Part shown: in pieces, positions 4,799 through 19,123 of the stretch
Layout: every line of letters begins with the position of its first letter
Numbering within the stretch: position 1 is the stretch's first letter
Source of the DNA: a virus
DNA: 19,123 nucleotides
Reading direction: 5' to 3' (one strand)
Virus genome (UHGV): UHGV-0246749
Position numbers and translations under genes: made by a program
The notes under the pieces: model-generated
Database searches by the model: none
Seen by the model: only the letters and a program-made list of their open reading frames with translations
What the model was told of the DNA's origin: nothing

Positions 4799-5035
4799 TC
4801 ACCTGGGTTGTTTGTTTTTCATTGAGGCGACCCAGGCATCTATTGCTTTTCTGTTATACATACATTCACTGGAAGGCTTTGGATTACCGTCTGGTGATAC
4901 GTGAATATACTCTCTTCCAACCATCCAGCATTCTTTCCGGGCCCGAAGAATTGTGCCTGGTTTGAGCCCGGTAATTGCGATAAGAACGCTTTCACAAACC
5001 CATTCATTGGGAGCCAGTTGAATCACATTGCCCAT
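4799..5035 (-). CDS. xis: Putative excisionase / recombination directionality factor
   Basis: 78-aa ORF immediately upstream of int on the same strand; the sequence resembles enterobacterial prophage excisionase-like proteins as I remember them; position is typical. Confidence 0.55.
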   Translation of the reverse strand: MGNVIQLAPNEWVCESVLIAITGLKPGTILRARKECWMVGREYIHVSPDGNPKPSSECMYNRKAIDAWVASMKNKQPR

Positions 5036-5043
5036 GTATTACC

Positions 5044-5190
5044 TCACACAACACTCAGCCCACGGCAGTGGCAACACACTTCAAACATTCGCTTCACAAC
5101 TTCACGACAGTAGAAGCCGTCAACATCTCGCGTCAGGTCATAGCGATTGCCGTAACGCTGGTGGACCCATCGTTCAAATGCTTTATTCAT
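5044..5190 (-). CDS. Small Cys-rich protein (48 aa), not in the ORF track
   Basis: My own translation: MNKAFERWVHQRYGNRYDLTRDVDGFYCREVVKRMFEVCCHCRGLSVV; ATG preceded by AGGAAG; start lies 1 nt after the upstream gene's stop, and its own stop is 8 nt from the xis start. Confidence 0.4.
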   Translation of the reverse strand: MNKAFERWVHQRYGNRYDLTRDVDGFYCREVVKRMFEVCCHCRGLSVV

Positions 5191-5193
5191 TCT

Positions 5194-5472
5194 TTACTTC
5201 CTTTTTATGGCTCGTAATTTTTTCAGGTGCTTTTCCTGCTCAGTGTCCGCGAGAATTTTGCGGTACTCCTGGTGGTCAATATGTTCGAACAGGCAGTTTA
5301 ACTCACCAATGCGTACCCGCCCTGATCGTCCGTCCATCCGTCGAAAGAACACTGAGTGCTCAGTGATGCGAGTAATCACCACGGGGTATCCGGCTCTGTC
5401 CGTGTATATCTGACCGCGTTGAATCAAAGCGAACATGTGGTTATCCCCATCGACAAATCGAGAACACAACAA
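5194..5472 (-). CDS. Hypothetical phage protein; start uncertain (track start is TTG, an internal ATG lies at 5436)
   Basis: 92-aa track ORF; no ATG upstream in frame (I traced back to a stop). Confidence 0.4.
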   Translation of the reverse strand: MLCSRFVDGDNHMFALIQRGQIYTDRAGYPVVITRITEHSVFFRRMDGRSGRVRIGELNCLFEHIDHQEYRKILADTEQEKHLKKLRAIKRK

Positions 5473-5520
5473 ACGCTGCTGCGAAGACCACCCCCAGAGT
5501 TACGATTGCATCAGGCCAGC

Positions 5521-6033
5521 TCATTGATTCACCTCCTGCCTGTCGTCCGGCATTCGCTCACTACAGCTTATCCAACCATCCGGAGTTACCGGAGAGCTGG
5601 TTGACGCTTCCGGGATTTTCCGAAAATTATTGGTTGACGAATCTTTATTTTCCCGAAAGTTTCCGGACTGAAGCATGGCTTCGCGGCAATCGTTCCAGCC
5701 TGTAGCGTATGCAGCCGCTTTGCTGCTGCCTTCAACTGGCGCATCCTGCCAATACATTTCTTCCGGCACTATCGGCGCTGGAGGGGCGGCAAATAGATAT
5801 CCGCCAAAGTCAGGAAGCTCTCTAATGGCCTGTACGAATTTTTGTTTGCCTACGTCAACTCCTAATGGGTAATGAGCTATAATCTTTGCCACCGGCTCTG
5901 CTGCCAGTGATGCCAGCGCAATCCGTGCCAGCTCTTCCGCTTCTTCTGCTGGAAGCACAACGTTGCTACCCGGTCCGTATGTTTCGCGCCACTGCTTGAT
6001 TGTCAGCAGTCGCTCTTTGGTTATAGTGGTCAT
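5521..6033 (-). CDS. Phage protein with DUF551-like C-terminal motif, possibly truncated
   Basis: 170 aa ending '...DGWISCSERMPDDRQEVNQ'; the 'W-I-x-C-x-E-R-x-P' pattern fits the start of DUF551 domains, but the ORF stops about 12 residues later. Confidence 0.55.
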   Translation of the reverse strand: MTTITKERLLTIKQWRETYGPGSNVVLPAEEAEELARIALASLAAEPVAKIIAHYPLGVDVGKQKFVQAIRELPDFGGYLFAAPPAPIVPEEMYWQDAPVEGSSKAAAYATGWNDCREAMLQSGNFRENKDSSTNNFRKIPEASTSSPVTPDGWISCSERMPDDRQEVNQ

Positions 6034-6043
6034 GTGTTACTCC

Positions 6044-6307
6044 TTAACCCGCAGTGCTTTCAACTGATGAGGGGAACAAAATCTTTTCATCAAACCCTGC
6101 ATTCATATCATGGACAGCAACACACCAATCCATCGACGAACGATTATCAAGAGCCTCCATGATTTCATCCATGCGGCGTAGGTCATACAGGTAAATGGTT
6201 TTATCGCCAATGGTGTAAAAACCAATTTTTTTTGGTGATGGACAGCGATCAAGAACGTCCTGTAATTCATTCAACCATGCCCGTTCTTTTTTTGTTAAAG
6301 TGGCCAT
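6044..6307 (-). CDS. Hypothetical phage early protein
   Basis: 87-aa ORF with ATG start, tightly packed between neighbours on the same strand. Confidence 0.5.
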   Translation of the reverse strand: MATLTKKERAWLNELQDVLDRCPSPKKIGFYTIGDKTIYLYDLRRMDEIMEALDNRSSMDWCVAVHDMNAGFDEKILFPSSVESTAG

Positions 6308-6308
6308 A

Positions 6309-6845
6309 TCACTCTCCTTTGATACGAATGTCAGCGACGCGTAATGCGTGTTCTAGGTCAATCAGGTAAAGCCAACTGCCATTTTCTTTAGGTATCATGA
6401 CTTGTCGCTCATCTGCATTTATCGGGTGTCCATATCGAAGGTCGTAGCGAGTCGGTAATTGAACTTCCCGCGCTTCCAGTTCAGCAATACGCTTGCACCC
6501 ATCAGAGATAACTCCCTCGTAATACTCGCGCTGCTCGTTGAGTTTTGATTTTGCTGCTTCAAGCTCAACGCGCAGCTTCCCAACCGTAAGCGCAATATCC
6601 TCGTTCTCCTGGTCGCGGCGTTTGATGTATTGCTGGTTTCTTTCCCGTTCATCCAGTAGTGCCAGCACGGTTTCTGGTCCGGTCAGAAATTTGAAGGCAT
6701 TGAGCGCATCAATATCCACACCGTAATCTTTAAGTTCCTGTTCACTTAACAAATCATCATCAGCTGGCAACATTAACAGGCGTTCCATTGCTGGAATTGC
6801 ACGTTCCGCCACCTCACGCAGTGACTGGTAATTAATTTCGCTCAC
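6309..6845 (-). CDS. Ea22-like protein (paralog 1)
   Basis: 178 aa; N-terminus 'MSEINYQSLREVAERA' matches the conserved N-terminus of the neighbouring paralog; GTG start overlaps the upstream stop as GTGA. Confidence 0.6.
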   Translation of the reverse strand: MSEINYQSLREVAERAIPAMERLLMLPADDDLLSEQELKDYGVDIDALNAFKFLTGPETVLALLDERERNQQYIKRRDQENEDIALTVGKLRVELEAAKSKLNEQREYYEGVISDGCKRIAELEAREVQLPTRYDLRYGHPINADERQVMIPKENGSWLYLIDLEHALRVADIRIKGE

Positions 6846-7528
6846 TGGTTGCCTCCTTTGCGAAGCTGGGCAGCAAAGTCAACTAACCACTCAGTCATTT
6901 CAACCTTCCCTACCAGGTCTGAACCAGGGTGCATACAGCAATCACTCTGCGCCGCTTTGAAATCCTTATACTCATATTCTTGGGCCACCAGATTTTTTGC
7001 AGCTTCTATAGCAGCATCCACCCCCTGCGCCCGGACTTCAGCCAGGAAAGCATCAGTGGTTGGCGTTTCAGGTATCTGTCTCCTCATCCGTTCTATTGCA
7101 TGATTGAACCCGAAGTCTTCCGCGAGAGATACGTCATCCATATTGTCATTGTCATCCTCAATATCCCGTGATTCTGGAATTGCAGACTTTATTCCCGCAT
7201 TCTCCGCTGTCAGCGCCGCGCACTTGGCCTCAAGAGCGGCAACCACTTCCTGATGGTCTTTGTACTTAACGTATGAGCCGGAGATGTCATCACCTTCGGT
7301 GTTTAGCCATGCGTCATTGCAATTCACTGCGTAGGTTCTGATGCTCATGTTGATGCTCTCCCGCCCCTGACAGACGCCAGGCCAGTCAATAAAGTATCCG
7401 CAATGCCTACCCTCAGACGTGCGCGCAGGATAAATGCCGTTATGACCCGGCAAAATATATGCTACCCATTCATCTTGCGTTGCCTGTTCCGCCGCCTCGC
7501 GCAGTGCCTGATAGTCAATCTTGCTCAC
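6842..7528 (-). CDS. Ea22-like protein (paralog 2)
   Basis: 228 aa; N-terminus 'MSKIDYQALREAAEQA'; GTG start; acidic stretch and coiled-coil-like segment. Confidence 0.6.
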   Translation of the reverse strand: MSKIDYQALREAAEQATQDEWVAYILPGHNGIYPARTSEGRHCGYFIDWPGVCQGRESINMSIRTYAVNCNDAWLNTEGDDISGSYVKYKDHQEVVAALEAKCAALTAENAGIKSAIPESRDIEDDNDNMDDVSLAEDFGFNHAIERMRRQIPETPTTDAFLAEVRAQGVDAAIEAAKNLVAQEYEYKDFKAAQSDCCMHPGSDLVGKVEMTEWLVDFAAQLRKGGNQ

Positions 7529-7853
7529 TGGCAGCCTCCTTTGCCGGGATTTCTAACTTTTGAGTGGTTGTATCAAATTCAAACAACTTAACCACGTCAT
7601 CAAACAGGACATAATCACCATCAGGATCTTCAGTCATATCTGCGCCACAATCCTGACCGCACGAGTCGCAACCATCCATATCAAGCTCGTATCGCTTCAG
7701 GTTTGCGATATTTGATAAATTCAGCGCCAGTACAGCCAGGTCATAAACCTCTTCGGCAGTGACATCGCTGTTCAGTCCCATTTCATGGCGATATATGATT
7801 TTTTCTACTCGTTGTTTTGTGATCGTCATTTTTCTCTTCACTCCGATATACAA
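7515..7853 (-). CDS. Hypothetical phage protein, start uncertain (TTG at 7853; ATG at 7829 after GGAG; ATG at 7781 one nt after the upstream stop)
   Basis: 112-aa track ORF; acidic Cys-containing C-terminal half; the choice of start changes the overlap with the upstream gene. Confidence 0.45.
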   Translation of the reverse strand: MYIGVKRKMTITKQRVEKIIYRHEMGLNSDVTAEEVYDLAVLALNLSNIANLKRYELDMDGCDSCGQDCGADMTEDPDGDYVLFDDVVKLFEFDTTTQKLEIPAKEAASEQD

Positions 7854-8100
7854 GGATTACTACACCCCCTCTGCTGATTGCGCGAGCTGGATCCCCTGGT
7901 TCCATGCCGTCAATTCCGAAGGCTTCGGAAAACGCATTCATTGCCTTCTGGCGTTCATCCTGCTTACGGCGTTTATTCCATTTTTTCAGGAACAACAGCG
8001 ACAGCCACCGTCCGCTGCAGAACACGATGTAAAAATAACCAAGGAGCGCCAGGCCGACATTCAGGGCCGTTTCTATGGTTAGTTGTGAGTCAGTTGCCAT
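7783..8100 (-). CDS. Small putative membrane protein (one hydrophobic helix followed by a basic stretch)
   Basis: N-terminal 'LNVGLALLGYFYIVFCSGRWLSLLFL' is hydrophobic, followed by 'KKWNKRRKQDERQK'; ATG start at 8100. Confidence 0.45.
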   Translation of the reverse strand: MATDSQLTIETALNVGLALLGYFYIVFCSGRWLSLLFLKKWNKRRKQDERQKAMNAFSEAFGIDGMEPGDPARAISRGGVVILVYRSEEKNDDHKTTSRKNHISP

Positions 8101-8338
8101 TTCTTACCTGTTTAAGTAACTGGTTGAACATAACACTTAGGGGATTGCTGTATCCAAACGGCAGATTGTTTACGCAGTACAGAATCGTTTTGTTTTTTTC
8201 TCCAGTTCGTACTATTAACCCATTCCACAATAACCGTGATAATTCATTACTGATAGAAGTTGCGCTTCTTCCAAGTGCGAGGGATATATCTTCTCTACTG
8301 CAATCTGGATTTTCCTGGATATACTCGATAACGGTCAT
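8090..8338 (-). CDS. Small protein with possible winged-helix fold
   Basis: Track ORF 8090-8380; I prefer the ATG at 8338 (MTVIEYIQ...), preceded by AAGGGA and clear of the upstream gene. Confidence 0.45.
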   Translation of the reverse strand: MTVIEYIQENPDCSREDISLALGRSATSISNELSRLLWNGLIVRTGEKNKTILYCVNNLPFGYSNPLSVMFNQLLKQVRNGN

Positions 8339-8348
8339 GTGGTCCCTT

Positions 8349-8930
8349 TTACTTAATATCTGTTTCGGATTGCATGCCATGAGTATTCATTTCGTTAATA
8401 ATTTCATCCAGAAGGATTTCAAGCCCTTCTCGACCCATATCTGAAAGAATGAAACCTTTATCAGGGGAAGTAGTGAGCATTTTCTGATAAAGAAACAGCG
8501 CTCTTCCCATTCCTTCAGCTTCGCCGTATTTTTGAATTAAATTCCATTCAATATACTGTTGTAAGGCAAATCGAATGGGGCCGGGATATATCGTCATAAA
8601 CCCATACATCCCGTTATATACCACGGCGTGTTCAATTGTTCCGTGTTCATTCAGGATATCAATTGTGCCGTTCTTGTCTTCTTCTTCGTTGATGAATGTC
8701 GTCACATACAACCATCGCCACTGAGCAACCTTCATCTCAACCGGAAGTTTACCCAGTAATCCTGCTTCGTCGGCTTGCGCCAGACACTGAAGGATACGTA
8801 AACCTCGCACATTAGGAGTATCGAATTCTCCGGCATCCAGACGACGTATGGCGTCGTGATAATCAATCGTCATACTGCCAGTTCGTATACCATTGGCTGT
8901 TGCTTCAGCCTGGAATTCATCGTATTGCAT
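8349..8930 (-). CDS. Hypothetical protein, 193 aa, no recognised domain
   Basis: ATG start; translationally coupled to the upstream 60-aa gene (its stop TAA lies within the GAGGAA ribosome-binding region). Confidence 0.6.
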   Translation of the reverse strand: MQYDEFQAEATANGIRTGSMTIDYHDAIRRLDAGEFDTPNVRGLRILQCLAQADEAGLLGKLPVEMKVAQWRWLYVTTFINEEEDKNGTIDILNEHGTIEHAVVYNGMYGFMTIYPGPIRFALQQYIEWNLIQKYGEAEGMGRALFLYQKMLTTSPDKGFILSDMGREGLEILLDEIINEMNTHGMQSETDIK

Positions 8931-8935
8931 GATAT

Positions 8936-9118
8936 TTATTCCTCATCTTCATCTGCTGGTGCAATAACGTCATATCCTGCCCTTTCTGCAATAAACAGGA
9001 ATGTTGAAAGAGTTCCTACAAGTTCATCGTCATGAACATGGCGAATGAATATTACTTTCCCGTTTTTGATGGTCAGCAATATTCTGGTTTGTTCGTGTTC
9101 TGCTGTTTTCTGATGCAT
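8936..9118 (-). CDS. Hypothetical small protein, 60 aa, acidic C-terminal tail
   Basis: ATG preceded by GGGAG; ends 'APADEDEE'; 5-nt gap to the next gene. Confidence 0.5.
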   Translation of the reverse strand: MHQKTAEHEQTRILLTIKNGKVIFIRHVHDDELVGTLSTFLFIAERAGYDVIAPADEDEE

Positions 9119-9120
9119 TA

Positions 9121-9234
9121 TTATCTCCCGTATGCTTTACGCAGAAATAAGCAGGCAATATGCATGTAATTTTCACCGTATTGTGCAATAAGGCAGGCGG
9201 TCTTGTGTGATGCCATATTCTTTATAAAAGTCAC
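9121..9234 (-). CDS. Possible small ORF (37 aa), not in the ORF track
   Basis: My own translation: (GTG)TFIKNMASHKTACLIAQYGENYMHIACLFLRKAYGR; AGGAGG lies 7 nt before the GTG; its stop is 2 nt before the 60-aa gene start. Could be non-coding leader instead. Confidence 0.25.
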   Translation of the reverse strand: MTFIKNMASHKTACLIAQYGENYMHIACLFLRKAYGR

Positions 9235-9312
9235 AATAAAGCCTCCTGTGGTTTAAGGTTGTAACAATCCCCGGCGATAAAACCGCAATAAACGTTCAGG
9301 GCATATTTGTTG

Positions 9313-9678
9313 TTATTGCGCTAATTCTTTTTCGGCAGCAGCTTTTGTATACTCACATGCAAAACTCAGAATTTCGCTGCCGAGTGTTTTCGTTTCGTGA
9401 TTACTGGACATATGTAATACCTGTGTTGCATGCAATAAATGATAAACATTTACCGCAAATGAATCAGGCTCCAGGCAAATGCCTTCGTAATTATCTTGCT
9501 GTGAGGTTGTTTCTGTCATTGCTCCTGAAGTGCATACGAGCCTGTTTTTGACAATTCTCTTTTCTCTAATCACTATATCGGCAACATCTATTGCCTTTAC
9601 AACCTCCGGGAGAAGTTCCGGGTTTGTATAATCAAAGTCATCAACATGGAGAACAGTTATGTTTTCGAACTTTTTCAT
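9313..9678 (-). CDS. Hypothetical protein, 121 aa, AT-rich gene
   Basis: ATG preceded by GAGGA at 5-nt spacing; flanked by AT-rich intergenic DNA on both sides; no recognised domain. Confidence 0.55.
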   Translation of the reverse strand: MKKFENITVLHVDDFDYTNPELLPEVVKAIDVADIVIREKRIVKNRLVCTSGAMTETTSQQDNYEGICLEPDSFAVNVYHLLHATQVLHMSSNHETKTLGSEILSFACEYTKAAAEKELAQ

Positions 9679-9806
9679 GGTTTCCTCAGCTGACTTATAT
9701 GTTCTGCTATATAGCGAGTCTCAGAAGTGTTTTCATATTGAGACTGTTTCCGCAATGATTGATAAAAATGTTCGCATGTACCTTGAGGGGCGAAGCGGCG
9801 ATTATG

Positions 9807-10310
9807 TCACCATTGGTATTGGTTCTTCCGTAGAAGAGCTTCGCGAGATAAGGGGCAAACTTGTTGAGATGCGTCATGGTGTTGCTGCTCCTCACTTTTT
9901 GGTTGCTCCGGAGGAGTAACCTCACCAGTTAACAGCCACATCGGATCGCAGCCAAGAATATTTGCCAGTGGGATAAGCATACTGATAGTTGGTTCATACT
10001 CTCCGCTCTCCCACTGGATGATAATTTCTTCATCGAGATCGAGCAGCCTGGCGAGTTCGGCGGTTGTTAAGCCGCAGGCTTCGCGTTGGGTGCAAAGACG
10101 GTTGTTGATTGCAGAATTTTTGTTCTGTAAAAGCATTGCTGACGATAGCTTTCTGGATATGCTATTTGTCATATCCCATGCCAGTCCTGCGCATGACTCT
10201 ATATCGCTAGAGAGCGTAGCATCAGGTGTTGCTTTTGCTATTAGTGTAATGAGGCTGCCGAGGTTTTTCAGTTCTTCGAGACAGTCAAGAGTTGTAGCTT
10301 TATTGATCAT
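9807..10310 (-). CDS. HTH (XRE-type) DNA-binding protein with a 58-aa N-terminal extension; first gene downstream of the putative pL
   Basis: 'CGLTTAELARLLDLDEEIIIQWESGEYEPTISMLIPLANILGCDPMWLLTG' is a classic XRE-family helix-turn-helix; ATG at 10310 preceded by GAGG; an internal ATG at 10136 would give an N-terminal HTH instead. Confidence 0.6.
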   Translation of the reverse strand: MINKATTLDCLEELKNLGSLITLIAKATPDATLSSDIESCAGLAWDMTNSISRKLSSAMLLQNKNSAINNRLCTQREACGLTTAELARLLDLDEEIIIQWESGEYEPTISMLIPLANILGCDPMWLLTGEVTPPEQPKSEEQQHHDASQQVCPLSREALLRKNQYQW

Positions 10311-10413
10311 GAGATGATACCTCAGTTACGAACTTTGTTTTATGGTAACTAAGGTATCAAGGTGTGGCAAGTGATTTTTGATACTTTGGTTTCTTTTTGT
10401 GTTTTGTGTCTGG
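10311..10413 (-). promoter_or_regulatory. Putative OL/pL region: two copies of the operator 12-mer plus a leftward promoter
   Basis: 'ttgatactttgg' at 10378-10389 and its near-reverse-complement 'ctaaggtatcaa' at 10349-10360; on the minus strand -35 TTGCCA (10365-10370), 17-nt spacer, -10 TACCAT (10342-10347). Confidence 0.45.
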
Positions 10414-11070
10414 TCAGAAAATATCCCACCTGGCATCAACCACAACACCTACTATTTCGCAATCATTGTCCATTTCTATGATTGGATATTGTGGATTAAG
10501 GGGCTTTAGAAACGCCTTTCCCATGTCAGAAATATATTTTTTGAATGTTGCTTCATTGGTAGATTTTTTTCTGGCGATGACGTAACACCCTGAAAAAACT
10601 TCTTTATCTGGGTTGACAAGGATCGACATTCCTTCAGGAAATGTTATTCCTACGGGCGAAGTCATTGAGTCTCCGTGCACTTCCAGCCAGAACCCCCTCT
10701 CACCAGCGTATTTTACAGAATGCCTCCAATTATCCTGATCATACATGTTGTAGTCATCACCAGAAGTTGCGAATAATCCTGCCTGAACCCAGTTAATTAC
10801 AGGGTAAGAGTGTGCTGTGTCTCTCTGTGGGCAGCTCTTAACATTATTTTCCCAATGCTTATCTTTTTCATCTCCGTTCTGAAGCCACTGCGGTGAACAC
10901 CGCAGTGCAGCTGCAACTTTAAAAAGGGTGTCACCGTTGAAACTTTTTGTAAGGCCTTGCTCGGCTTTACTTATTGCAACTCTGGTGACCCCAGCTTTTT
11001 TAGCCAACGCATCTTGTGTTAACCCAGCTTTTTGCCGTGCGTTGATGAGACGTTCACCTAAAGACTTCAT
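10414..11070 (-). CDS. cI: CI-type prophage repressor (N-terminal HTH, C-terminal LexA/S24 peptidase-like domain)
   Basis: Track ORF extends to 11145, but the ATG at 11070 (MKSLGERL...) follows AGGAG. N-terminal HTH 'LTQDALAKKAGVTRVAISKAEQG'; C-terminal 'HGDSMTSP' and 'ARKK' fit the S24 Ser/Lys dyad; 'VQAGLF' contains a possible Ala-Gly autocleavage site. Confidence 0.85.
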   Translation of the reverse strand: MKSLGERLINARQKAGLTQDALAKKAGVTRVAISKAEQGLTKSFNGDTLFKVAAALRCSPQWLQNGDEKDKHWENNVKSCPQRDTAHSYPVINWVQAGLFATSGDDYNMYDQDNWRHSVKYAGERGFWLEVHGDSMTSPVGITFPEGMSILVNPDKEVFSGCYVIARKKSTNEATFKKYISDMGKAFLKPLNPQYPIIEMDNDCEIVGVVVDARWDIF

Positions 11071-11181
11071 TTTTCTTCTCCTCTCATGGCTGTTGATACT
11101 AAAGTAACAGAATTTCTTGATACTTTGGGTTCCTGTGGTTAACATCGTTGGATAACAAAGTATCTGGCGTGAGACTAAAGA
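11071..11181. promoter_or_regulatory. Putative OR/pR/pRM region: three copies of the operator 12-mer and a rightward promoter
   Basis: 'ttgatactaaag' at 11093-11104, 'ttgatactttgg' at 11117-11128, reverse copy 'caaagtatct' at 11156-11165; rightward -35 TTGATA (11117-11122), 17-nt spacer, -10 TAACAT (11140-11145). Confidence 0.5.
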
Positions 11182-11409
11182 ATGACCCTTTATGAAATAT
11201 TAAAAATTCAATTTAAAACCAATGCCGCTATTGGTCGCAGGTTCCCAAAGAAAGGAAGGCCTCGTGGCAGTCAAGGTGTTGGAAAGTGGAAAACGCGAGG
11301 TGTTCCGGAGGATGTTGCCATTCTTTGTCATCTGGATCCGAGCATTCCATATACACACCCAAGTCTAGCGAATACAGAAGATGACAAGCCCACAGGAGAC
11401 CAACAATGA
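11182..11409 (+). CDS. Possible small basic protein in the Cro position; could be non-coding leader
   Basis: 75-aa ORF rich in K/R/G with no HTH I can recognise; weak ribosome-binding site; stop overlaps the next ATG. Confidence 0.3.
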   Translation: MTLYEILKIQFKTNAAIGRRFPKKGRPRGSQGVGKWKTRGVPEDVAILCHLDPSIPYTHPSLANTEDDKPTGDQQ

Positions 11410-12113
11410 ACACCGCAATTTTTAACGGCAAAGCATCCATGACCAGCGTTGAGATCGCAGAGTTGGTGGGAAGCCGACCAGATAGTGTTAAGAGAACTAT
11501 TGAAACACTGGCTAAAAAGGGAATCATCCAATTTCCACAGACTGTGGAAATTGAGAATAAACAATCACTTGGGCCTCGCCGATTTTCTAGCGCGTATGTA
11601 TTCGAAGGTGAACGAGGTAAGCGCGACAGCATCATTGTCGTCGCACAGCTCTGTCCTGAATTCACAGCTTGCCTGGTAGATCGCTGGCGCGAACTGGAAG
11701 AACAGATCCGTAAGCCAATGAGCGAAATCGAAATGGTTGCCGCGATGGCTCTTGAAGCCGTTCGCCAACAGAAACGGATCACTCAGGTGGAAGAAAAAGT
11801 CAGCCACGTTGCTGAAACAGTCGAGCAAATTAAAAAGGGCACTATTCGTGAGGGCTATGCCGGATATCGCCAACTGAAAGCAAAAACCGGTTTGTCAGAT
11901 GATAAATGCCGCAATCTGGTGAACGCCTATCAAATTCCTACAGACACACATGAGTTCATGACGCCGGACGGATTGTTGTCACGTCGCGCAATTGTTGCTG
12001 TGGAACCGTTTATGGCTGCTTTTTATCGGGTTATGGAGGAAGCAGAACCGCGAGGGACTCGCTGGTATCACCCGAAAATGGGGTTATTTCAGGTTATTGG
12101 TTGGCAGCGATGA
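11406..12113 (+). CDS. Rha-like / antirepressor-like DNA-binding regulator
   Basis: 235 aa; ATG preceded by AGGAG; N-terminal 'MTSVEIAELVGSRPDSVKRTIETLAKKG' parallels the N-terminal region of the Rha protein at 12526. Confidence 0.55.
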   Translation: MNTAIFNGKASMTSVEIAELVGSRPDSVKRTIETLAKKGIIQFPQTVEIENKQSLGPRRFSSAYVFEGERGKRDSIIVVAQLCPEFTACLVDRWRELEEQIRKPMSEIEMVAAMALEAVRQQKRITQVEEKVSHVAETVEQIKKGTIREGYAGYRQLKAKTGLSDDKCRNLVNAYQIPTDTHEFMTPDGLLSRRAIVAVEPFMAAFYRVMEEAEPRGTRWYHPKMGLFQVIGWQR

Positions 12114-12136
12114 AAAAAAGCCGGGAGTAACCCGGC
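12113..12136 (-). terminator. Intrinsic terminator oriented for leftward transcription
   Basis: Seven A's (12113-12119) then stem gccggg / cccggc with loop agtaa (12120-12136); on the minus strand this is a hairpin followed by a U-tract. No T-tract follows on the plus strand. Confidence 0.4.
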
Positions 12137-12332
12137 TCACTCAACATCAATAACGGGGAGCTGTTTCGCATAAAACGGCTCCGAAACATCCAAGAACAGT
12201 TCTAAAGATATCAGCAGCTATATGATCATTTCAAGACCAAATATTGATTCTGCAATTCCGGGACGTTACACTGCTCAGGCACCTTATAAAGCGGGTGCCG
12301 GGCGTGGAAACCCGAAATTCAATATAGAGCAC

Positions 12333-12354
12333 AACCGCGCTCATGCGGTTTTTT
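12333..12354 (+). terminator. Weak candidate rightward terminator (tR1-like position)
   Basis: 'aaccgc gctcat gcggtt' followed by T's to 12354; short GC stem, so low confidence. Confidence 0.3.
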
Positions 12355-12525
12355 CGTGTCATGAGCATCGTTACGCCCAAATTATGGTGGGGCGTGCAGG
12401 GCCAACTTCGGTTGGGCCGGGTTCTATGTTGACCGGTATTTCCACCCCTGTACGTCTCACCACCTATATGGTCGTGGAAAGCCTTGGTGGTGAGTTCATT
12501 GAATTCAACATAGGGGCTGTCACCA

Positions 12526-13076
12526 TGACTACTCTCCCAACCCAATCTCACCCTGAAATCACGATTATCAATGGTCGCGTTGTCACCACATCTCTTGCAG
12601 TAGCTAATTACTTTACTAAACGGCATGAGCGGGTTTTAGATAGAATTAGAAACCTCGAATGTTCCGCTGAATTTACTGAACACAATTTTGTGTTAAGTGA
12701 ATACACCGACGCATCAGGCCGCAAACTACCTTGCTATCAAATCACCCGCGATGGCTTCGCGTTCCTTGCCATGGGCTTCACTGGTAAACGTGCTGCCCGG
12801 TTCAAAGAGGCATACATCAACGCCTTTAACCTGATGGAGAAGAGTTTATCAGGTGCCGATGCGTCTGATATGTCAGCTGTCGCACGAAACGCCAGAGGCG
12901 TATACCTGCATTTGCGTGAAATCCATCAAATCTGGACAAGCCAGCTTTATCCAATGCTTAAGGCCGTTGAATCTCCGCTGGCTAGCAAACTGTACGACCG
13001 TGTTGGTGATGCTGTTTTTGGCGCTGCACTTGTTGATTCCAGGCTGAATGGTTCTGACAAGGAGGTTCGCCCATGA
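12526..13076 (+). CDS. Phage regulatory protein Rha
   Basis: 'ITIINGRVVTTSLAVANYFTKRHERVLDRIRNL...ITRDGFAFLAMGFTGKRAARFKEAYINAFNLMEK' matches the Rha family as I recall it. Track ORF starts at 12222, but the upstream 101 codons look non-coding; I take the ATG at 12526. Confidence 0.7.
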
Positions 13077-13267
13077 TTAGTTACGAAATCATCATCTCCA
13101 CTACGGAATACAGAAACGATGTATCAGTTCGCACGGATGTATCTGTCTGGCACCGTCGCTATAAATCCAGAAAAACAGCGGAACTGAAAGCGGCAGAGAT
13201 GTGTGAAACCATCTCAATGAAAGGTAGCCCGGTTAAATACGTAACTACGGTGGAGGTGCGTCCATGA
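13073..13267 (+). CDS. Hypothetical small protein (64 aa)
   Basis: ATGA overlap with the Rha stop; part of a chain of coupled small ORFs. Confidence 0.45.
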   Translation: MISYEIIISTTEYRNDVSVRTDVSVWHRRYKSRKTAELKAAEMCETISMKGSPVKYVTTVEVRP

Positions 13268-13488
13268 TCCGCCACATCGTTAATTCCCTGTATCACCGAT
13301 ACAACCGTTGCCCCCGTGTGGGGCAGTGGTTCGCCACCAGCAACGGTCACGTTCTGCGGGTTTGCCTAGTCAACGCTGAAAGCCAGAAAGTCGTGTGCGA
13401 ACTACAGGGGCGTAGCTACACCATCAGTTACCCTCTGGCGGTATTTCTGTCTGGAAAAATGTTTAAGCGTCTGGGAGGTGTGGCGTGA
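13264..13488 (+). CDS. Hypothetical small protein (74 aa)
   Basis: ATGA overlap with the upstream stop; Cys-containing. Confidence 0.45.
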   Translation: MIRHIVNSLYHRYNRCPRVGQWFATSNGHVLRVCLVNAESQKVVCELQGRSYTISYPLAVFLSGKMFKRLGGVA

Positions 13489-13784
13489 ACTGTTTTCAGT
13501 TTGTGTGCGGATGTGCTTTCGATAACCCGATTCAGCGCCTGATTATGTTGCGTGTTTTGATGTCGGGTTCTTCAGACGGTGAAGGCGAGAGAGTTATTGA
13601 TCATCAGGTGCTTGCTGATTTCTGCTGTTGTTCTAAGCAAGCGATATTCAGGGAAACCCTGGCACTGGAAAGAGCTGGTTATCTTCATATCCGAAAAATT
13701 GCAACGCTTACTATTGATGCAAAAGCCAGACTACAACCTGCGCGTGGCTACACAATTCTCATGCCGCGGAAGGAGGTTGTATGA
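13485..13784 (+). CDS. Hypothetical protein (99 aa), possibly DNA-binding
   Basis: GTGA overlap with the upstream stop; ends in ATGA overlap with the replication initiator. Confidence 0.45.
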   Translation: MNCFQFVCGCAFDNPIQRLIMLRVLMSGSSDGEGERVIDHQVLADFCCCSKQAIFRETLALERAGYLHIRKIATLTIDAKARLQPARGYTILMPRKEVV

Positions 13785-14773
13785 GCCGTTACGCCCCCAC
13801 ACCGGAAGTTATGGCTATTGGTCAAATTAATATTTCCGGCAATGTTACACCTGCGAACTGGTGGAAATATATTCGACTACCCAGTGGGCGTCCGGATGCG
13901 ACGGCTATCGCTCTGCTTTCAGAGATCGTTTACTGGTACCGCCCGACAGAGGTCAGGGATGAGCACACCGGAGCGTTGCTGGGATATCGCAAGCGTTTTC
14001 AGGGCGACAAACTGCAAAGAAGCTACCAGGCGTTTGCTGAGCAGTTTGGTTTCGGGAAAAGGGAAACCGCAGATGCGCTGAAGCGTCTGCGCGATGCAGG
14101 GTTTATTACTCTGGATTTACGCACGGTGGAAATGCTCGATGGGGTGAAATGCAGCAATATTTTGTTTGTCGGGATCAACCCACAGGCAATTGCGGCCATC
14201 ACCACACCTTCTTCTGTTTCGCCAGAAAGTAACAGCAATAATGCAATCAGCGATACAGCTATTACGTTAAAACGGAACACCCCCCGACGTCATAACGGAA
14301 CAGGGGATACGCCGAATGTTGATACAAATACAGAGATTACTACAGAGATTACAACGGAGACTAAAAACACTATTGATGCATCCGCTGACGCGTCTGCGCC
14401 AGCGCGTTCTGCCCGACAGGAATATTCATCGGAATTTGAACAGGCCTGGCAGGAATATCCCAAACGTGCTGGTGGCAATTCCAAGTCAGCAGCCTTCAAA
14501 GCCTGGAAAGCCCGTATCAGGGAGGGAATAAAACCGGAGACCATGCTTGATGGCGTGAAGCGGTATGCCGCCTGGGTACGTGCTACAGGAAATACCGGCA
14601 CACAGTTCGTGAAGCAGGCTGCGACGTTCTTTGGACCCGATCGTCACTTCGAAGATTACTGGCAACAGCCAGCCGCTCACGGAGGTGGGCGACAGCGACA
14701 GGTCGATGTCCTGGCTGGCCTGGGAGCCATGTCTGACAAATTCGGTAAATCCAGTAACAAATTGACATTCTGA
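13781..14773 (+). CDS. Phage replication initiator / replisome organiser (lambda O-like role)
   Basis: 330 aa; ATG after AGGAGG; sits directly upstream of the DnaC-like and DnaB-like genes; carries an internal tandem repeat at the DNA level. Confidence 0.7.
   Translation: MSRYAPTPEVMAIGQINISGNVTPANWWKYIRLPSGRPDATAIALLSEIVYWYRPTEVRDEHTGALLGYRKRFQGDKLQRSYQAFAEQFGFGKRETADALKRLRDAGFITLDLRTVEMLDGVKCSNILFVGINPQAIAAITTPSSVSPESNSNNAISDTAITLKRNTPRRHNGTGDTPNVDTNTEITTEITTETKNTIDASADASAPARSARQEYSSEFEQAWQEYPKRAGGNSKSAAFKAWKARIREGIKPETMLDGVKRYAAWVRATGNTGTQFVKQAATFFGPDRHFEDYWQQPAAHGGGRQRQVDVLAGLGAMSDKFGKSSNKLTF
14329..14364. repeat. Tandem 12-bp direct repeats inside the initiator gene (candidate origin iterons)
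   Basis: 'tacagagattac' at 14329-14340 and 14341-14352 (perfect), then degenerate 'aacggagactaa' at 14353-14364; encodes TEITTEITTETK. Confidence 0.35.
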
Positions 14774-14783
14774 GGTGACAGCG

Positions 14784-15683
14784 ATGATGACGATTGACCA
14801 ACGTGAGAAACAAACAAGACTACAGGCGCGAATGGATGAGTTACGGGCAGAAATGGATGAGTTACGGGCAGAGATTGCATTTGCTCAGAAGGGCGAAAAG
14901 CCATGGCCTTATCGTTCCTGCCTGATGCGTGAAGGTCGCGGATATTGCGAAAAACACGGTAAATATCGTACGCATATACTGGTGTGGATCGATCGTAATG
15001 GCGAGGACAGAGAAAAAATTTCATGCTGCCCTGACTGCTTGATCGCTGAGGCCAGTGATTTGACCATGGAACTGTCGTCCCTCAAGGCGGAAGAACTGAC
15101 TGATAACGCCGGAATTGCTCTGCGTTTTCGGGACTGCGAGTTTGATAATTATCTGGAGGTTAATCCTGACGCAGCCAGAAATCTTGCGGCCTGTCGCCGC
15201 TATGCGGAGAACTGGCCAGATATGCTGGAGAACGGTACCAGTCTTGTTATGACCGGCAGTTGCGGTACCGGGAAAAATCATCTGGCGGTATCAATGGCAA
15301 AACACATCATCCGTAACTATCTGGCCAGTGTGGAGATCACCGACGTGATGCGCCTTACCCGGGCTGTGAAAAACTGCTGGCGGAATGACAGTGAAAAAAC
15401 AGCGGATGACGTCATTGAGCATTATGCGTCACTGGATTTGCTGATTGTCGACGAAGTCGGCGTTCAGTTTGGCAGTGCGGCTGAAATGGCCATTTTGCAG
15501 GAAATTATCAATGCCCGGTATGAGGGTATTTTGCCAACTATCCTGATCAGCAACCTTTCACCGGAAGAATTGTGGGCGTTCATCAGTCCCCGGATTGCCG
15601 ACAGGATCACCGATGGCGGGCGCAACTGGTTGTCGTTTAACTGGCCCAGCTACCGTTCTCGTATCGGAGGTGTTGCCGCATGA
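14784..15683 (+). CDS. DnaC-like helicase loader (IstB-like AAA+ ATPase)
   Basis: Walker A 'GSCGTGKNHLA' and Walker B 'LLIVDEVG'; track start is GTG at 14775, I prefer the ATG at 14784 after GAGGTG; stop overlaps the helicase start as ATGA. Confidence 0.85.
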   Translation: MMTIDQREKQTRLQARMDELRAEMDELRAEIAFAQKGEKPWPYRSCLMREGRGYCEKHGKYRTHILVWIDRNGEDREKISCCPDCLIAEASDLTMELSSLKAEELTDNAGIALRFRDCEFDNYLEVNPDAARNLAACRRYAENWPDMLENGTSLVMTGSCGTGKNHLAVSMAKHIIRNYLASVEITDVMRLTRAVKNCWRNDSEKTADDVIEHYASLDLLIVDEVGVQFGSAAEMAILQEIINARYEGILPTILISNLSPEELWAFISPRIADRITDGGRNWLSFNWPSYRSRIGGVAA

Positions 15684-17080
15684 CCAGCCAGAACACCCCG
15701 GCATGGCGTAACGATGACCTGGAAGGCGCTGTCATCGGTGCGTTTTTTCTGCGTGGGGCCGATCCGGAAGTGATGGATATTCTGGCCACACTTCCGGCGG
15801 ATGTATTTTTTGTGCGTCAGTACCGGGATATTTACGCGGGGATTTGCAGACAGGCTCGCATATCCGGCGTCATTGACCCCGTACTGCTGTGCAATGAGAT
15901 GCCGGAACTTGCCCCGGTGATTACCGACACCGGACGCAAAACCTGGGTGAAGTCTTCACTGGAGCACTATGTCGCAGCGTTGCGGCGCAATGCCGCACTG
16001 CGCGATGCAGAAAAAACACTGACTGAAGCATTACAGAATTTACGTGATGCGTATACCTGTGAAGCAGCCGAGGATGCCCTGAAGGATGTGCAGAACATGA
16101 TGGCCTCACTGTCGACCGGAAAGGGCGTCATTCAGCCGGTTCACATTGATGATGTCCTTCCGGAAGTGGTCGACCGTGTTGAATGCCGCAATCAGGGACT
16201 GGAGAAATCCAGGGCGCTGATGACCGGTATTGATGAACTGGACGCAAAAACGGGCGGTATGGAGCCCGGTGACTTGGTATTCATTGCCGCCCGTCCTTCG
16301 ATGGGGAAAACCGAACTTGCGCTGGACATCATCGACAAGGTGACTGAGCAGGGGCATGGCGTGCTTCTGTTCACCATGGAGATGGCGAACATCCAGATTG
16401 GTGAACGTATGGTGTCTGCTGCCGGTGGAATGCCGGTATCCCGTCTTAAGTCTGTTGCCCGTTTTGAAGATGAAGACTGGGCGCGTTTCTCGCAGGGCGT
16501 GGGACGAATGACGGGGCGTAATATCTGGATGGTGGATCAGGCAAACCTGACCATTGATGAGATATGTGCAACCACGAAGCACCACCGGATGAAACACCCG
16601 GAAACGGCGCTGGTGGTGGTCGATTACCTCGGTCTGATTAAAACCCGCAGCACGGGGCGTCACGACCTTGCTGTGGGGGAAATCTCAAAGGGACTTAAAA
16701 GCCTGGCAAAATCCGGCGGTTTCCCGCTGATTGCTCTGAGCCAGCTCTCCCGAGGCGTGGAATCCAGACCCAATAAACGTCCCATGAACTCAGACCTGAA
16801 AAACTCCGGGGAAATAGAGGCTGATGCCGACATCATTCTGATGCTTTACAGGGATGAGGTGTATAACCCGGATACACAGGCCAGAGGCATAGCAGAAATC
16901 AACATCACGAAACAGCGTAATGGCACACTCGGGACCATTTACCGGCGTTTTCATAACGGACATTTTCTGCCTGTGGACCAGGAGAGTGCCCGGGTTCTTT
17001 CCACACCCATGACGCCGGGCAATCCGCGCAGATACAGCAATAACCGCATGTCGGGCAGTAAAACGGAGCGTTTATTTTGA
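15680..17080 (+). CDS. DnaB-family replicative DNA helicase
   Basis: 466 aa; Walker A-like 'ARPSMGKTELAL', 'LVVVDYLGLI', 'IALSQLSR' and 'ILMLYRDEVY' fit DnaB helicase motifs. Confidence 0.9.
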   Translation: MTSQNTPAWRNDDLEGAVIGAFFLRGADPEVMDILATLPADVFFVRQYRDIYAGICRQARISGVIDPVLLCNEMPELAPVITDTGRKTWVKSSLEHYVAALRRNAALRDAEKTLTEALQNLRDAYTCEAAEDALKDVQNMMASLSTGKGVIQPVHIDDVLPEVVDRVECRNQGLEKSRALMTGIDELDAKTGGMEPGDLVFIAARPSMGKTELALDIIDKVTEQGHGVLLFTMEMANIQIGERMVSAAGGMPVSRLKSVARFEDEDWARFSQGVGRMTGRNIWMVDQANLTIDEICATTKHHRMKHPETALVVVDYLGLIKTRSTGRHDLAVGEISKGLKSLAKSGGFPLIALSQLSRGVESRPNKRPMNSDLKNSGEIEADADIILMLYRDEVYNPDTQARGIAEINITKQRNGTLGTIYRRFHNGHFLPVDQESARVLSTPMTPGNPRRYSNNRMSGSKTERLF

Positions 17081-17334
17081 ACAACAGAACAATCACTGTT
17101 TCACCGGAACAACTTCGTCGGCAGGCGCAGGAGATGCTTCGTTGTGCTGAACAGATGGAAAAAACGAGCGTGAAAAAAGATACGCTCCGCAAGCAGCTTA
17201 CTCCGGCGCTTCGTGATCTGCTGCAGGCAAAACACCGCACACAAAAGGCGGTGGATGAGCTGGTGGATTGCGTGGCGGAACTGGAAGGACAGGTAAGCCA
17301 GTTTGAAACGCTGGTGAAGGAGTTTACTGCGTGA
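17077..17334 (+). CDS. Hypothetical protein (85 aa), predicted coiled coil; TTG start
   Basis: TTGA overlap with the helicase stop; no ATG near the 5' end. Confidence 0.4.
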   Translation: MNNRTITVSPEQLRRQAQEMLRCAEQMEKTSVKKDTLRKQLTPALRDLLQAKHRTQKAVDELVDCVAELEGQVSQFETLVKEFTA

Positions 17335-17380
17335 TGGCTGAATTTTTTTCTCCTGCGTTCATGCAATACCGTTCGCTGAG

Positions 17381-18376
17381 GTGACCGTGAGAGCACTGCT
17401 GACCCCTGAAATTGCCCCGCGTATGGGGATCGTCTTGTTCAGACCCGGTTCAGAGCTGATGCCCCTGTTTATGCAGGGGCGTGTCCTGCTGGAGCCTGAG
17501 CCGGAACGTTATTCATCTTTTGCCAGTGGTGCCGTTCCGGCAGCATCACAACCGCTGGCGGATGATCCTGCCGTTCGGGCCGTGTTCCGCCATGAGGCGG
17601 TGATCCGTCGTGCTGGTGGCGTGGAATGCCTTGAGAGCTGGTTACTTCGTGAAAAAGGCTGCCAGTGGCCTCATTCCGGATGGCACAGCGAGAACATGAC
17701 CACAATGCGACACGCGCCGGGCGCAATCCGTCTGTGCTGGCACTGCGATAACCTGCTTCGCGATCAGTTCACGGAACGTCTGGAATCAATGGCAACGGAT
17801 AACTGTGCCCGCTGGGTGTTGTCCGTAGTCCGTCGTGATCTCGGTTTTGATGACAGCCACGTTGTGACAATGCCGGAACTGTGCTGGTGGCTGGTTCGTA
17901 ATGACCTGGCGGATGCCTTACCGGAAAGTGCAGCCCGTAAGGCACTGAGATTACCGAAGCCTGTTGTGCCGTCTGTCACCCGGGAAAGTGACCTTGTGCC
18001 TTCGGTTCCTGCCACCAGCATCATCCGGGATAAGGCGAAAAAGGTGCTGGCGCTGAAAGTGGATCCGGAGTCGCCGGAGTCTTTTATGTTACGCCCCAAA
18101 CGTCGTCGCTGGGTTAATGAAAAGTACACGCGCTGGGTTAAGACGCAGCCGTGTGCATGTTGTGGTAAGCCAGCCGACGATCCTCATCACCTGATTGGTC
18201 ATGGTTAGGGTGGAATGGGTACAAAAGCGCATGACCTTTTTGTGTTGCCTTTGTGCAGAAAACACCATGACGGACTGCATGCGGATACCGTGGCATTTGA
18301 AGAGAAGTATGGTTCCCAACTGGAGCTGATATTTCGTTTTATCGATCGCGCGCTGGCGATTGGTGTGCTGTCCTGA
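17381..18376 (+). pseudogene. DUF968-like protein with HNH-like C-terminal motif, interrupted by an in-frame TAG at 18206-18208
   Basis: Frame reads '...PHHLIGHG' TAG 'GGMGTKAHDLFVLPLCRKHHDGLHADTVAF...' and continues 55 more codons to a TGA at 18374-18376; the stop splits what looks like a single conserved His/Cys motif. Confidence 0.55.
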
Positions 18377-18393
18377 TTTTGTGGAGAAAGTTG

Positions 18394-18777
18394 ATGCGTG
18401 ATATTCAGATGGTTCTCGAACGCTGGGGAGCATGGGCGGCAAATAATCATGAGGATGTGACCTGGTCGTCCATTGCTGCCGGTTTTAAGGGATTAATTCC
18501 TTCAAAAGTAAAATCTCGCCCGCAATGTTGTGACGATGACGCGATGATCATTTGCGGGTGCATGGCCCGTCTGAAAAAGAACAACAGCGATTTACACGAT
18601 TTATTAGTAGATTATTATGTATGTGGTATGACATTCATGTCACTGGCAAGTAAGCATTGCTGCTCGGATGGTTATATCGGGAAAAGGTTACAGAAGGCTG
18701 AGGGCATAATTGAAGGGATGTTAATGGCATTAGATATCCGGTTAGATATGGATATCGTTGCTAATAATTCTAATTGA
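18394..18777 (+). CDS. Q: Late-gene antiterminator Q (the type I associate with 933W-like phages)
   Basis: '[33 protein letters not shown]...' as I remember that Q family; ATG at 18394 after GGAGA (track start is a TTG at 18379); followed by a leader and strong terminator. Confidence 0.75.
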
Positions 18778-18964: not shown

Positions 18965-19123
18965 TTAGAACTGATAAACCAGACCTACAGCGACGATGTC
19001 GTCGGTATCAATACCAGCTGTTTTGGTAAACTTACTATCGTCAATTAAGTTGATTTTGTAATCAACAAAAGTGGACATGTTTTTATTAAAGTAGTAAGTA
19101 GCACCGACATCGACATACTTGAC
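18965..19123 (-). CDS. 3' end of an OmpC/NmpC-like outer-membrane porin gene (partial; start lies beyond the window)
   Basis: My own minus-strand translation: ...[52 protein letters not shown]; the ending 'GLVYQF' is the typical porin C-terminal strand. Not in the ORF track because no start is in the window. Confidence 0.8.

What the first reader, a model, noticed from the sequence alone, without database searches (positions are those of the whole stretch)
17381..18376. In-frame amber codon splits a conserved His/Cys motif in the DUF968 gene
The frame reads through '...PHHLIGHG' then TAG at 18206-18208, then continues 'GGMGTKAHDLFVLPLCRKHHDGLHADTVAF...' for 55 codons with no frameshift. The motif on both sides of the stop looks like one HNH-type metal-binding site. 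This is either a recent nonsense mutation or a gene that depends on stop-codon readthrough or a suppressor.
Basis: seen in the sequence. Interest (0 to 1): 0.5.

Follow-up and report, generated by a model that had tools for sequence, protein, structure and literature searches.

The report
Amber nonsense mutation in prophage nuclease gene
A single C-to-T change has turned a glutamine codon into a stop codon inside the catalytic motif of a prophage HNH-type nuclease gene in one E. coli lineage, which is an ordinary pseudogene already flagged as such in public annotation.

Summary
TAG at 18206-18208 is codon 274 of a 329-codon DUF968/YdfU-family gene (17387-18376, + strand), and the frame stays open for 55 more codons. 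The nearest intact allele (WP_001202272.1, E. coli CE10 and AR_0013) differs from the window's 996 bases at one base only, 18206 C>T (CAG Gln to TAG).

The stop lies in the loop between the two strands of a beta-beta-alpha-metal (HNH) fold. The truncated product loses strand 2, the metal-binding helix and half of the zinc site.

Relatives almost all read Gln here. All 117 uncut related loci run exactly 56 codons from this position to their stop, under strong purifying selection (dN/dS about 0.05).

The TAG allele has a single origin. The 990-nt gene is identical in all 11 loci that hold it whole. It occurs in 2 of 5,426 complete E. coli genomes (one is ST38) and on about 330 contigs, so it is not a sequencing error.

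I found no suppressor: the prophage tRNAs are Met/Ile-CAT and Arg, both hosts have wild-type tRNA-Gln, and no genome holds a supF allele. No stimulatory RNA structure was found.

RefSeq already annotates the gene as "pseudogene, internal stop". Verdict: a recent nonsense mutation in a dispensable prophage gene, of low interest.

The parts
17387..18376 (+). DUF968/YdfU-family gene (329 codons), interrupted by an amber codon and therefore a pseudogene
   Evidence: The ORF and frame were read directly. The repaired protein matches Pfam PF06147 at E=2.7e-80. PGAP annotates the identical sequence in two genomes as 'DUF968 domain-containing protein, pseudogene, internal stop'.
17378..17389 (+). GAGG Shine-Dalgarno (17378-17381) and the probable GTG start (17387-17389).
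   Evidence: Read from the sequence. The PGAP start and the homolog N-termini (MRALL...) agree with 17387.
18206..18208 (+). Amber codon TAG, codon 274, derived from CAG (Gln) by C>T at 18206
   Evidence: It is the only difference from the intact allele in L002 and L003. Relatives have CAG in 110 loci, CAA in 12 and TAG in 4. At the protein level the column reads Q141, N6, L5, M3, F3.
18152..18280 (+). His-Me finger (HNH) core. It runs from Cys256/258/259, through His267-His268 on strand 1 and the Gly-rich loop holding codon 274, to Asp283, strand 2, Cys290, His293-His294 and His298 on the helix.
18209..18373 (+). 55 in-frame codons (275-329) left untranslated by the stop. They encode strand 2, the metal-binding helix and the C-terminal helices.
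   Evidence: All 117 uncut related loci have exactly 56 codons from codon 274 to the stop. Median dN/dS for this segment is 0.055.
18215..18376 (+). 53-aa ORF starting at ATG (Met277), 6 nt after the TAG. Gene callers call it as a separate gene, and it is a possible but unproven reinitiation product.
   Evidence: The ORF is listed. It is called on 313 contigs and appears in all loci. Met277 is nearly invariant in intact homologs, so the ATG is not new.
18272..18274 (+). Codon 296, GGA (Gly), where relatives have Glu (HHDELH). The change is shared with the intact sister allele.
   Evidence: Searches give the distribution and coordinates. The column aligns with E60 of YbcO.
18394..18777 (+). Downstream antiterminator Q gene (quuD type) with its own SD (GGAG at 18383-18386), 17 nt after the DUF968 stop
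   Evidence: Pfam Phage_antitermQ matches at E=7.7e-54. PGAP names it quuD. Sequence read.

Best explanation
The gene encodes a DUF968/YdfU-family protein. Its C-terminal about 75 residues form a zinc-stabilised His-Me finger (HNH) nuclease domain. It sits in the 'nin' position of a lambdoid prophage integrated at yecE, between the replicative helicase and antiterminator Q. In one lineage of this prophage a spontaneous C-to-T transition at 18206 changed Gln274 (CAG) to amber (TAG). Ribosomes stop there and release a 273-residue product. That product keeps the N-terminal part, the first Cys pair and the catalytic His-His strand. It lacks strand 2, the metal-binding helix (C290, H293, H294, H298) and the C-terminal helices, so nuclease activity should be lost. 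The gene is dispensable for the prophage and host, so the allele has simply been carried along by clonal descent and prophage recombination. What is shown: the mutation, its polarity, its single origin, its position within the fold, and the constraint on the lost segment in relatives. What is inferred: loss of activity, dispensability, and a recombination-type role for the nuclease.
For: (1) A single-base difference from the intact allele, CAG to TAG. (2) Two complete genomes are 100% identical to the window's gene and carry PGAP's 'internal stop' pseudogene flag, while four genomes 99.9% identical to the 996-base gene query appear intact; the two fetched carry intact WP_001202272.1. (3) Only 2 of 1,213 genomes holding this 63-mer region have the TAG version. 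In IMG/VR, 2 contigs have TAG against at least 120 with CAR. (4) All 11 fetched TAG loci that hold the whole gene have an identical 990-nt gene while their flanks differ, which indicates a single origin. (5) Gln occupies the column in 141 of 158 homologs. The tail length of 56 codons is invariant in 117 of 117 loci. dN/dS of the lost segment is about 0.05. (6) The stop falls inside the beta-beta-alpha-Me motif. The literature places DUF968 in His-Me finger group 7 together with YbcO (PMC5714182). (7) The allele occurs in independent projects (Broad KTE strains, a second complete chromosome, Norway, Japan, a Logan SRA assembly, a metagenome), so it is real. (8) The prophage carries other pseudogenes too: a frameshift, partial genes and an IS remnant.
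Against: Nothing contradicts it directly. The allele is not a one-off: the exact truncated product is on 329 contigs, against 375 for the intact sister allele, and it persists in recombinant prophage backgrounds. That pattern is compatible with neutrality in a heavily sampled clone, but does not exclude some retained or selected role. No further decay has accumulated downstream of the stop, so relaxed selection cannot be shown from this lineage alone. Loss of nuclease activity is inferred and was not measured.
Confidence: 0.93

Rival explanations
1. The TAG is decoded: the gene depends on programmed stop-codon readthrough or on an amber suppressor tRNA of the phage or host to make full-length nuclease.
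For: The frame stays open for 55 codons and the allele is carried by hundreds of assemblies. A Gln-inserting suppressor, or near-cognate tRNA-Gln(CUG), would restore the exact wild-type protein (established knowledge of supE and UAG misreading). None of the 54 intact CDS of this prophage uses TAG as a stop, against 8.3% in related loci.
Against: The open downstream frame is fully explained by recency, since the allele is one base from an intact one. TAG at this codon is confined to one haplotype. There is no tRNA in the window, and the prophage tRNAs are CAT, TCG and TCT. Both complete-genome hosts have 2 tRNA-Gln UUG plus 2 CUG and no CUA. The 60 listed of the 155 supE-allele carriers are K-12-size genomes (about 4.5-4.8 Mb), mostly named laboratory strains. 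Exact supF is present in 0 of 5,426 genomes. The RNA downstream folds no better than shuffles, z=-0.89. No other prophage CDS carries an in-frame TAG.
Confidence: 0.03
2. The gene now works as two pieces. Ribosomes terminating at UAG reinitiate at the AUG 6 nt downstream (18215), and the 273-aa and 53-aa fragments reassemble into a working, or attenuated, HNH nuclease.
For: ATG lies at 18215-18217, preceded by AGGG/GGTGG within 3-8 nt. Gene callers call the 53-aa ORF on 313 contigs. The break lies in a flexible, low-confidence Gly-rich loop, which is the kind of site where split proteins can sometimes complement.
Against: Met277 and the surrounding bases are ancestral and nearly invariant in intact homologs, so nothing here evolved for reinitiation. 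There is no experimental evidence. The split separates the two halves of the zinc site and the catalytic His from the metal-binding helix. No other lineage has a split gene at this point.
Confidence: 0.02
3. The TAG is a sequencing or assembly error.
For: None beyond the fact that it is a single base.
Against: The identical base is seen in two finished genomes from different laboratories, an IMG isolate genome and a metagenome contig, and 8 further NCBI and Logan assemblies. The index lists 549 blocks that carry the exact truncated product. The window itself has a private SNP at 16274, so it is yet another assembly.
Confidence: 0.005
4. The phage uses a reassigned genetic code in which TAG means Gln, as in some crAss-like and Lak phages.
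For: TAG replaces a Gln codon, and no prophage CDS ends in TAG.
Against: Only one in-frame TAG exists among the prophage genes, and the 54 intact CDS have zero internal stops. There is no suppressor tRNA. The host is E. coli with a normal frequency of TAG stops in chromosomal genes. The sister allele has CAG.
Confidence: 0.005

Closest known systems
E. coli K-12 Qin prophage YdfU and the Pfam family DUF968 (PF06147)
   Same: Same family: the repaired protein matches at E=2.7e-80, above the gathering score. Same genomic position immediately upstream of antiterminator Q, and the same C-terminal Zn/HNH motif. The literature assigns DUF968 to His-Me finger group 7 (PMC5714182).
   Different: This copy carries an amber codon at residue 274 and Gly instead of the conserved Glu at residue 296. 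No member of the family has a demonstrated biochemical function.
DLP12 prophage YbcO (DUF1364), PDB 3g27
   Different: YbcO is a 96-residue stand-alone domain. It is not detectable by plain sequence search, and the hhalign probability is only 47%. The DUF968 protein has an extra N-terminal region of about 250 residues.
Bacteriophage P1 Ref, the RecA-dependent HNH nuclease, PDB 3plw
   Different: Different Pfam family (RecA_dep_nuc). RecA dependence and a recombination role for DUF968 are inferred only. The AF2 model is of moderate quality (mean pLDDT 64).
Classical amber (CAG to TAG) nonsense mutations in phage and E. coli genes, for example lambda and T4 amber mutants suppressed by supE
   Same: Same mutational event (C-to-T in a Gln codon) and the same expected consequence (truncation). 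A supE host would restore the wild-type residue (established knowledge).
   Different: This one arose naturally in wild isolates that lack supE. The site is TCAGG rather than a CCAGG Dcm hotspot, as read from the sequence.
Lambda Rap/NinG and RusA, the nin-region structure-specific nucleases
   Same: They occupy the equivalent place between the replication genes and Q. PMC5714182 hypothesises a similar recombination or repair role for DUF968. One TAG-carrying contig also has a second DUF968 gene next to rusA (L135).
   Different: Different families and, for RusA, a different fold. The similarity is positional and hypothetical, not tested here.

Membership tests
DUF968 (PF06147) / YdfU family | A match to the Pfam model above its gathering score | tested here: met
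   The repaired protein scores 268.8 bits against a cutoff of 27.8, E=2.7e-80, covering residues 160-326. Precomputed Pfam also puts the truncated 273-aa product and the 53-aa tail each under PF06147.
His-Me finger (HNH, beta-beta-alpha-Me) nuclease superfamily | A beta-hairpin followed by an alpha-helix, structurally superposable on solved HNH domains | tested here: met
His-Me finger (HNH, beta-beta-alpha-Me) nuclease superfamily | A catalytic His at the end of strand 1, and metal or zinc ligands (a Cys pair before strand 1, Cys/His on the helix) | tested here: met
   H268, C256, C258, C259, C290, H294 and H298 are invariant across 30 homologs, and H267 and H293 are at least 90% conserved. 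H268 aligns with H32 of YbcO and C290 with C54.
His-Me finger (HNH, beta-beta-alpha-Me) nuclease superfamily | Metal-dependent nuclease activity | not testable with these tools
   This needs biochemistry. No published assay of a DUF968 protein turned up in the held library.
Pseudogene by recent nonsense mutation | An intact, near-identical allele exists, and the stop derives from a sense codon by one substitution | tested here: met
   995 of 996 bases are identical to CE10 and AR_0013, and the only difference is C>T at 18206, CAG to TAG.
Pseudogene by recent nonsense mutation | The lost segment is required in relatives (conserved length and purifying selection) | tested here: met
   The tail is 56 codons in 117 of 117 loci. 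Median dN/dS is 0.055. The lost segment contains invariant C290, H294 and H298.
Programmed stop-codon readthrough gene | The stop codon is conserved at the same position across diverged homologs | tested here: not met
   TAG occurs only in one haplotype. Elsewhere the codon is CAG or CAA, and the residue is Q, N, L, M or F.
Programmed stop-codon readthrough gene | A stimulatory downstream RNA element or a leaky stop context | tested here: not met
   Bases 18200-18300 fold at -29.2 kcal/mol, z=-0.89 against shuffles. Rfam finds nothing there. The context is UAG-G.
Suppressor-dependent amber allele | A tRNA with a CUA anticodon in the phage or host | tested here: inconclusive
   No tRNA in the window. 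The prophage tRNAs are CAT, TCG and TCT. The glnV/glnX operon is wild type in both complete hosts. Exact supF is absent from all 5,426 genomes. Other possible suppressors (serU, leuX, tyrU, lys and others) could not be scanned genome-wide with these tools.
Stop-codon-reassigned phage (TAG = Gln) | Many in-frame TAGs in phage genes plus a suppressor tRNA | tested here: not met
   There are 0 internal stops in the 54 other prophage CDS and no suppressor tRNA.

The most novel reading that the evidence does not exclude
The amber allele might be kept as an attenuated form of a potentially harmful prophage nuclease rather than being mere decay. Low-level near-cognate decoding of UAG by tRNA-Gln(CUG) would regenerate the exact wild-type protein. 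Alternatively, termination-reinitiation at the AUG 6 nt downstream would give a two-piece enzyme. Either would supply a trickle of activity. On this reading, the prophage's complete avoidance of TAG as a stop codon (0 of 54 CDS, against 8.3% in relatives) would reflect a history in which UAG is leaky for this phage.
Probability: 0.03. Interest if true: 0.4.

Novelty: already known. Interest (0 to 1): 0.07.

Why it matters
It matters little in itself. It is a textbook CAG-to-TAG nonsense mutation in a non-essential prophage gene, and RefSeq already marks it as a pseudogene with an internal stop. There are three modest uses. First, the allele is a clean single-origin marker for one prophage lineage, found in ST38-type and related E. 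coli. Second, it is natural evidence that the DUF968 HNH nuclease is dispensable for keeping this lambdoid prophage. Third, the intact Q274/E296G allele, the amber allele and the consensus allele form a ready-made allelic series for anyone who wants to assay the still-uncharacterised DUF968 nucleases.

Tried and rejected

I meant to exclude recoding by showing that neighbouring genes use TAG as a true stop. That failed, because none of the 54 does. Recoding was instead excluded by the absence of other in-frame TAGs and of suppressor tRNAs.

The supE allele search could not by itself clear the two hosts, because only 60 of 155 exact carriers were listed. I therefore walked to the glnV operon in both genomes and read the anticodons.

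A Dcm-hotspot origin (CCAGG to CTAGG) was considered and rejected: the ancestral context is GTCAGGG.

P0027, a 272-aa protein ending at ...HHLIGH, looked like a second truncation. It is labelled partial by NCBI, presumably cut at a contig end, and belongs to a different haplotype.

Variants of the 53-aa ORF (P0286, P0287) are too few and sit on contigs too short to say anything about selection downstream of the stop.

Full report
**The observation.** The window carries TAG at 18206-18208, in frame within an ORF that begins at GTG 17381 or 17387. The frame then continues without a shift for 55 codons to TGA at 18374-18376. The start is more likely GTG 17387. A GAGG Shine-Dalgarno lies 5 nt upstream, PGAP uses this start, and homologs begin MRALL. 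With that start the gene has 329 codons and the amber is codon 274.

**Which codon belongs there.** A megablast of 17381-18376 against 5,426 complete E. coli genomes found two 100% matches (NMBU_W05E18 from Norway and U1 from Japan) and four at 99.9%. In both identical genomes PGAP annotates "DUF968 domain-containing protein", pseudogene, "internal stop". In CE10 and AR_0013 the gene is intact (WP_001202272.1). The only difference over the 996 bases is C instead of T at 18206, so CAG (Gln) became TAG. The ancestral context GTCAGGG is not a Dcm (CCAGG) hotspot.

**How widespread the allele is, and whether it is real.**
- A 63-mer centred on the TAG is exact in only 2 of the 1,213 genomes that hold this region.
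- A degenerate-pattern scan of IMG/VR found 2 contigs with TAG and at least 120 (capped) with CAR. Across all fetched loci the codon is CAG in 110, CAA in 12 and TAG in 4.
- The exact 273-aa truncated product is on record from 329 contigs (Broad KTE strains, ENA, Logan). The 53-aa ORF after the stop is on 313 contigs, and the intact sister allele on 375. The index lists the truncated product in 549 blocks.
- All 11 fetched TAG loci that hold the whole gene have an identical 990-nt gene, while their flanks vary. L137 has 34 mismatches over 11 kb, L138 has a different immunity region, and L135 has a different late region.
- The window has a private SNP at 16274 and a different left flank, so it is yet another assembly.

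The mutation is therefore real and arose once. It has since been carried by a well-sampled lineage (NMBU_W05E18 is O86:H18, ST38; PMC7311804) and by recombinant versions of the prophage.

**What the gene is and where the stop falls.**
- The repaired protein matches Pfam DUF968 at E=2.7e-80 (residues 160-326) and HNHc_6 just below threshold.
- The literature places DUF968, together with DUF1364/YbcO (PDB 3g27), in group 7 of the His-Me finger superfamily and hypothesises a recombination or repair role (PMC5714182; see also PMC4118853). No functional study of YdfU turned up.
- Plain sequence search of PDB finds nothing. A profile of 30 homologs aligns residues 257-309 to YbcO 20-73 at E=1.9e-4 with 32% identity. 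The pairs are H268~H32, D283~D47, C290~C54 and H294-D295-E296~H58-D59-E60.
- An AlphaFold model (mean pLDDT 64) shows strand 265-268, a low-confidence Gly-rich loop 272-281 that contains residue 274, strand 286-289 and helix 291-299.

The 273-aa product keeps the first Cys cluster and the catalytic His-His strand. It loses strand 2, the helix with C290, H293, H294 and H298, and the C-terminal helices.

**Whether the lost part matters.** In relatives it does. All 117 uncut related loci have exactly 56 codons from codon 274 to the stop, and about 100 of 107 have a full-length open frame upstream. For codons 275-329 the median dN/dS between the window allele and other alleles is 0.055. Residue 274 itself is Gln in 141 of 158 homologs, otherwise N, L, M or F. 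A truncation here should therefore abolish the nuclease, though this is inferred and not measured.

**Tests of readthrough, suppression and recoding.**
- The window has no tRNA genes. The prophage tRNAs downstream have anticodons CAT, TCG and TCT.
- I located the glnV/glnX operon in both complete hosts. Each has two tRNA-Gln(UUG) and two tRNA-Gln(CUG), with no CUA.
- The supE allele is exact in 155 genomes, and the 60 listed are K-12-size genomes (about 4.5-4.8 Mb), mostly named laboratory strains.
- An exact supF allele occurs in none of the 5,426 genomes. Other suppressor types could not be scanned genome-wide.
- The RNA at 18200-18300 folds no better than shuffled controls (z=-0.89), and Rfam finds nothing there.
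- None of the other 54 intact prophage CDS has an in-frame stop, which excludes code reassignment.
- The ATG 6 nt after the TAG (Met277) is preceded by a weak SD-like AGGG/GGTGG, so reinitiation is conceivable. Both features are ancestral, and nothing indicates that a split enzyme is made.

**Context.** The prophage is a largely complete lambdoid element of about 48 kb at yecE. It carries integrase, excisionase, a LexA-family repressor, Rha/Ash regulators, replication genes and DnaB, the DUF968 gene, quuD, an OmpC-like porin, tRNAs, and lysis, terminase, head and tail genes. It also has several other pseudogenes. DUF968 occupies the nin-region slot where other lambdoid phages carry Rap/NinG or RusA. 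Those lambda nin genes are dispensable (established knowledge), which fits the tolerance of this nonsense mutation. Q has its own SD 17 nt after the DUF968 stop, so its translation should not depend on the upstream frame. A polar effect on Q transcription is possible but was not tested.

**Verdict.** This is a recent, single-origin CAG-to-TAG nonsense mutation that inactivates the HNH domain of a dispensable prophage nuclease gene. It is already annotated as a pseudogene in RefSeq, and it is ordinary. Three side observations could not be fully explained. The E296G change preceded the stop, since the intact sister allele shares it. No CDS in this prophage ends in TAG. The allele is fairly abundant within its lineage. 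These are recorded but do not change the conclusion.

Noticed in passing
window 18272-18274 (codon 296 of the DUF968 gene): The window allele and its intact sister allele (CE10, AR_0013) read HHDGLH. Relatives read HHDELH. Glu is found in 142 of 156 homologs by motif and in 110 of 117 IMG/VR loci, and the column aligns with E60 of YbcO (3g27). Gly occurs only in this haplotype group. The HNH helix had therefore already taken a rare substitution at a highly conserved residue before the amber mutation, and the enzyme may already have been impaired.
   Followed up: partly
L127 4300-49901 (the same prophage in NMBU_W05E18); window 3430-18777 is part of it: None of the 54 intact annotated CDS of this prophage ends in TAG (31 TGA, 23 TAA). 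TAG ends 8.3% of 908 unique long ORFs in related lambdoid loci, and host genes nearby use it normally. P is about 0.01, post hoc and uncorrected. The truncated DUF968 frame is the only real frame in the prophage that ends in TAG. The other TAG-ending ORFs are not annotated and lie mostly antisense to annotated genes, so they are probably spurious.
   Followed up: partly
window 17660-17746 (residues 92-120 of the DUF968 protein): The N-terminal half has an invariant Cys/His cluster: C92, H96, H100, C117, H119 and C120. In the AF2 model it shows strand 104-109, strand 112-117 and helix 118-124, at pLDDT about 80-89. It looks like a second zinc or beta-beta-alpha-like module, and the truncated 273-aa product retains it. 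Pfam DUF968 covers only residues 160-326.
   Followed up: no
window 1-3017: The left end of the window is not contiguous with the prophage in U1 or NMBU_W05E18. It matches the end of a second prophage (tape-measure and baseplate genes plus a 507-aa serine recombinase at 1377-2900, minus strand) inserted in tandem into yecE, as in strain JKHS016. A yecE (DUF72) fragment at about 3002-3403 separates the two elements.
   Followed up: partly
window 12279-12467 (+): Rfam finds isrK (12279-12355, 61.6 bits) and a C4 antisense RNA (12380-12467, 82.4 bits) at the 5' end of the Ash/Rha antirepressor-like gene (12222-13076). This resembles a P1/P7-type c4-ant immunity module embedded in a lambdoid early-right operon.
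   Followed up: no
L135 17006-19260: One TAG-carrying contig (GCA_006231895.1) has, about 6 kb downstream, a second nin-like block with an intact 351-aa DUF968 paralog, RusA and a different Q-type antiterminator. Some carriers therefore have a functional paralog that could compensate for the lost nuclease.
   Followed up: no
window 18965-19123 (-) and L001 4585-5667: Immediately downstream of Q, on the opposite strand, lies a prophage-borne OmpC/NmpC-like porin gene (360 aa). Beyond it are a truncated DNA methyltransferase and tRNA genes (CAT, TCG, TCT). This is the moron arrangement known from DLP12 and Stx-type phages.
   Followed up: no
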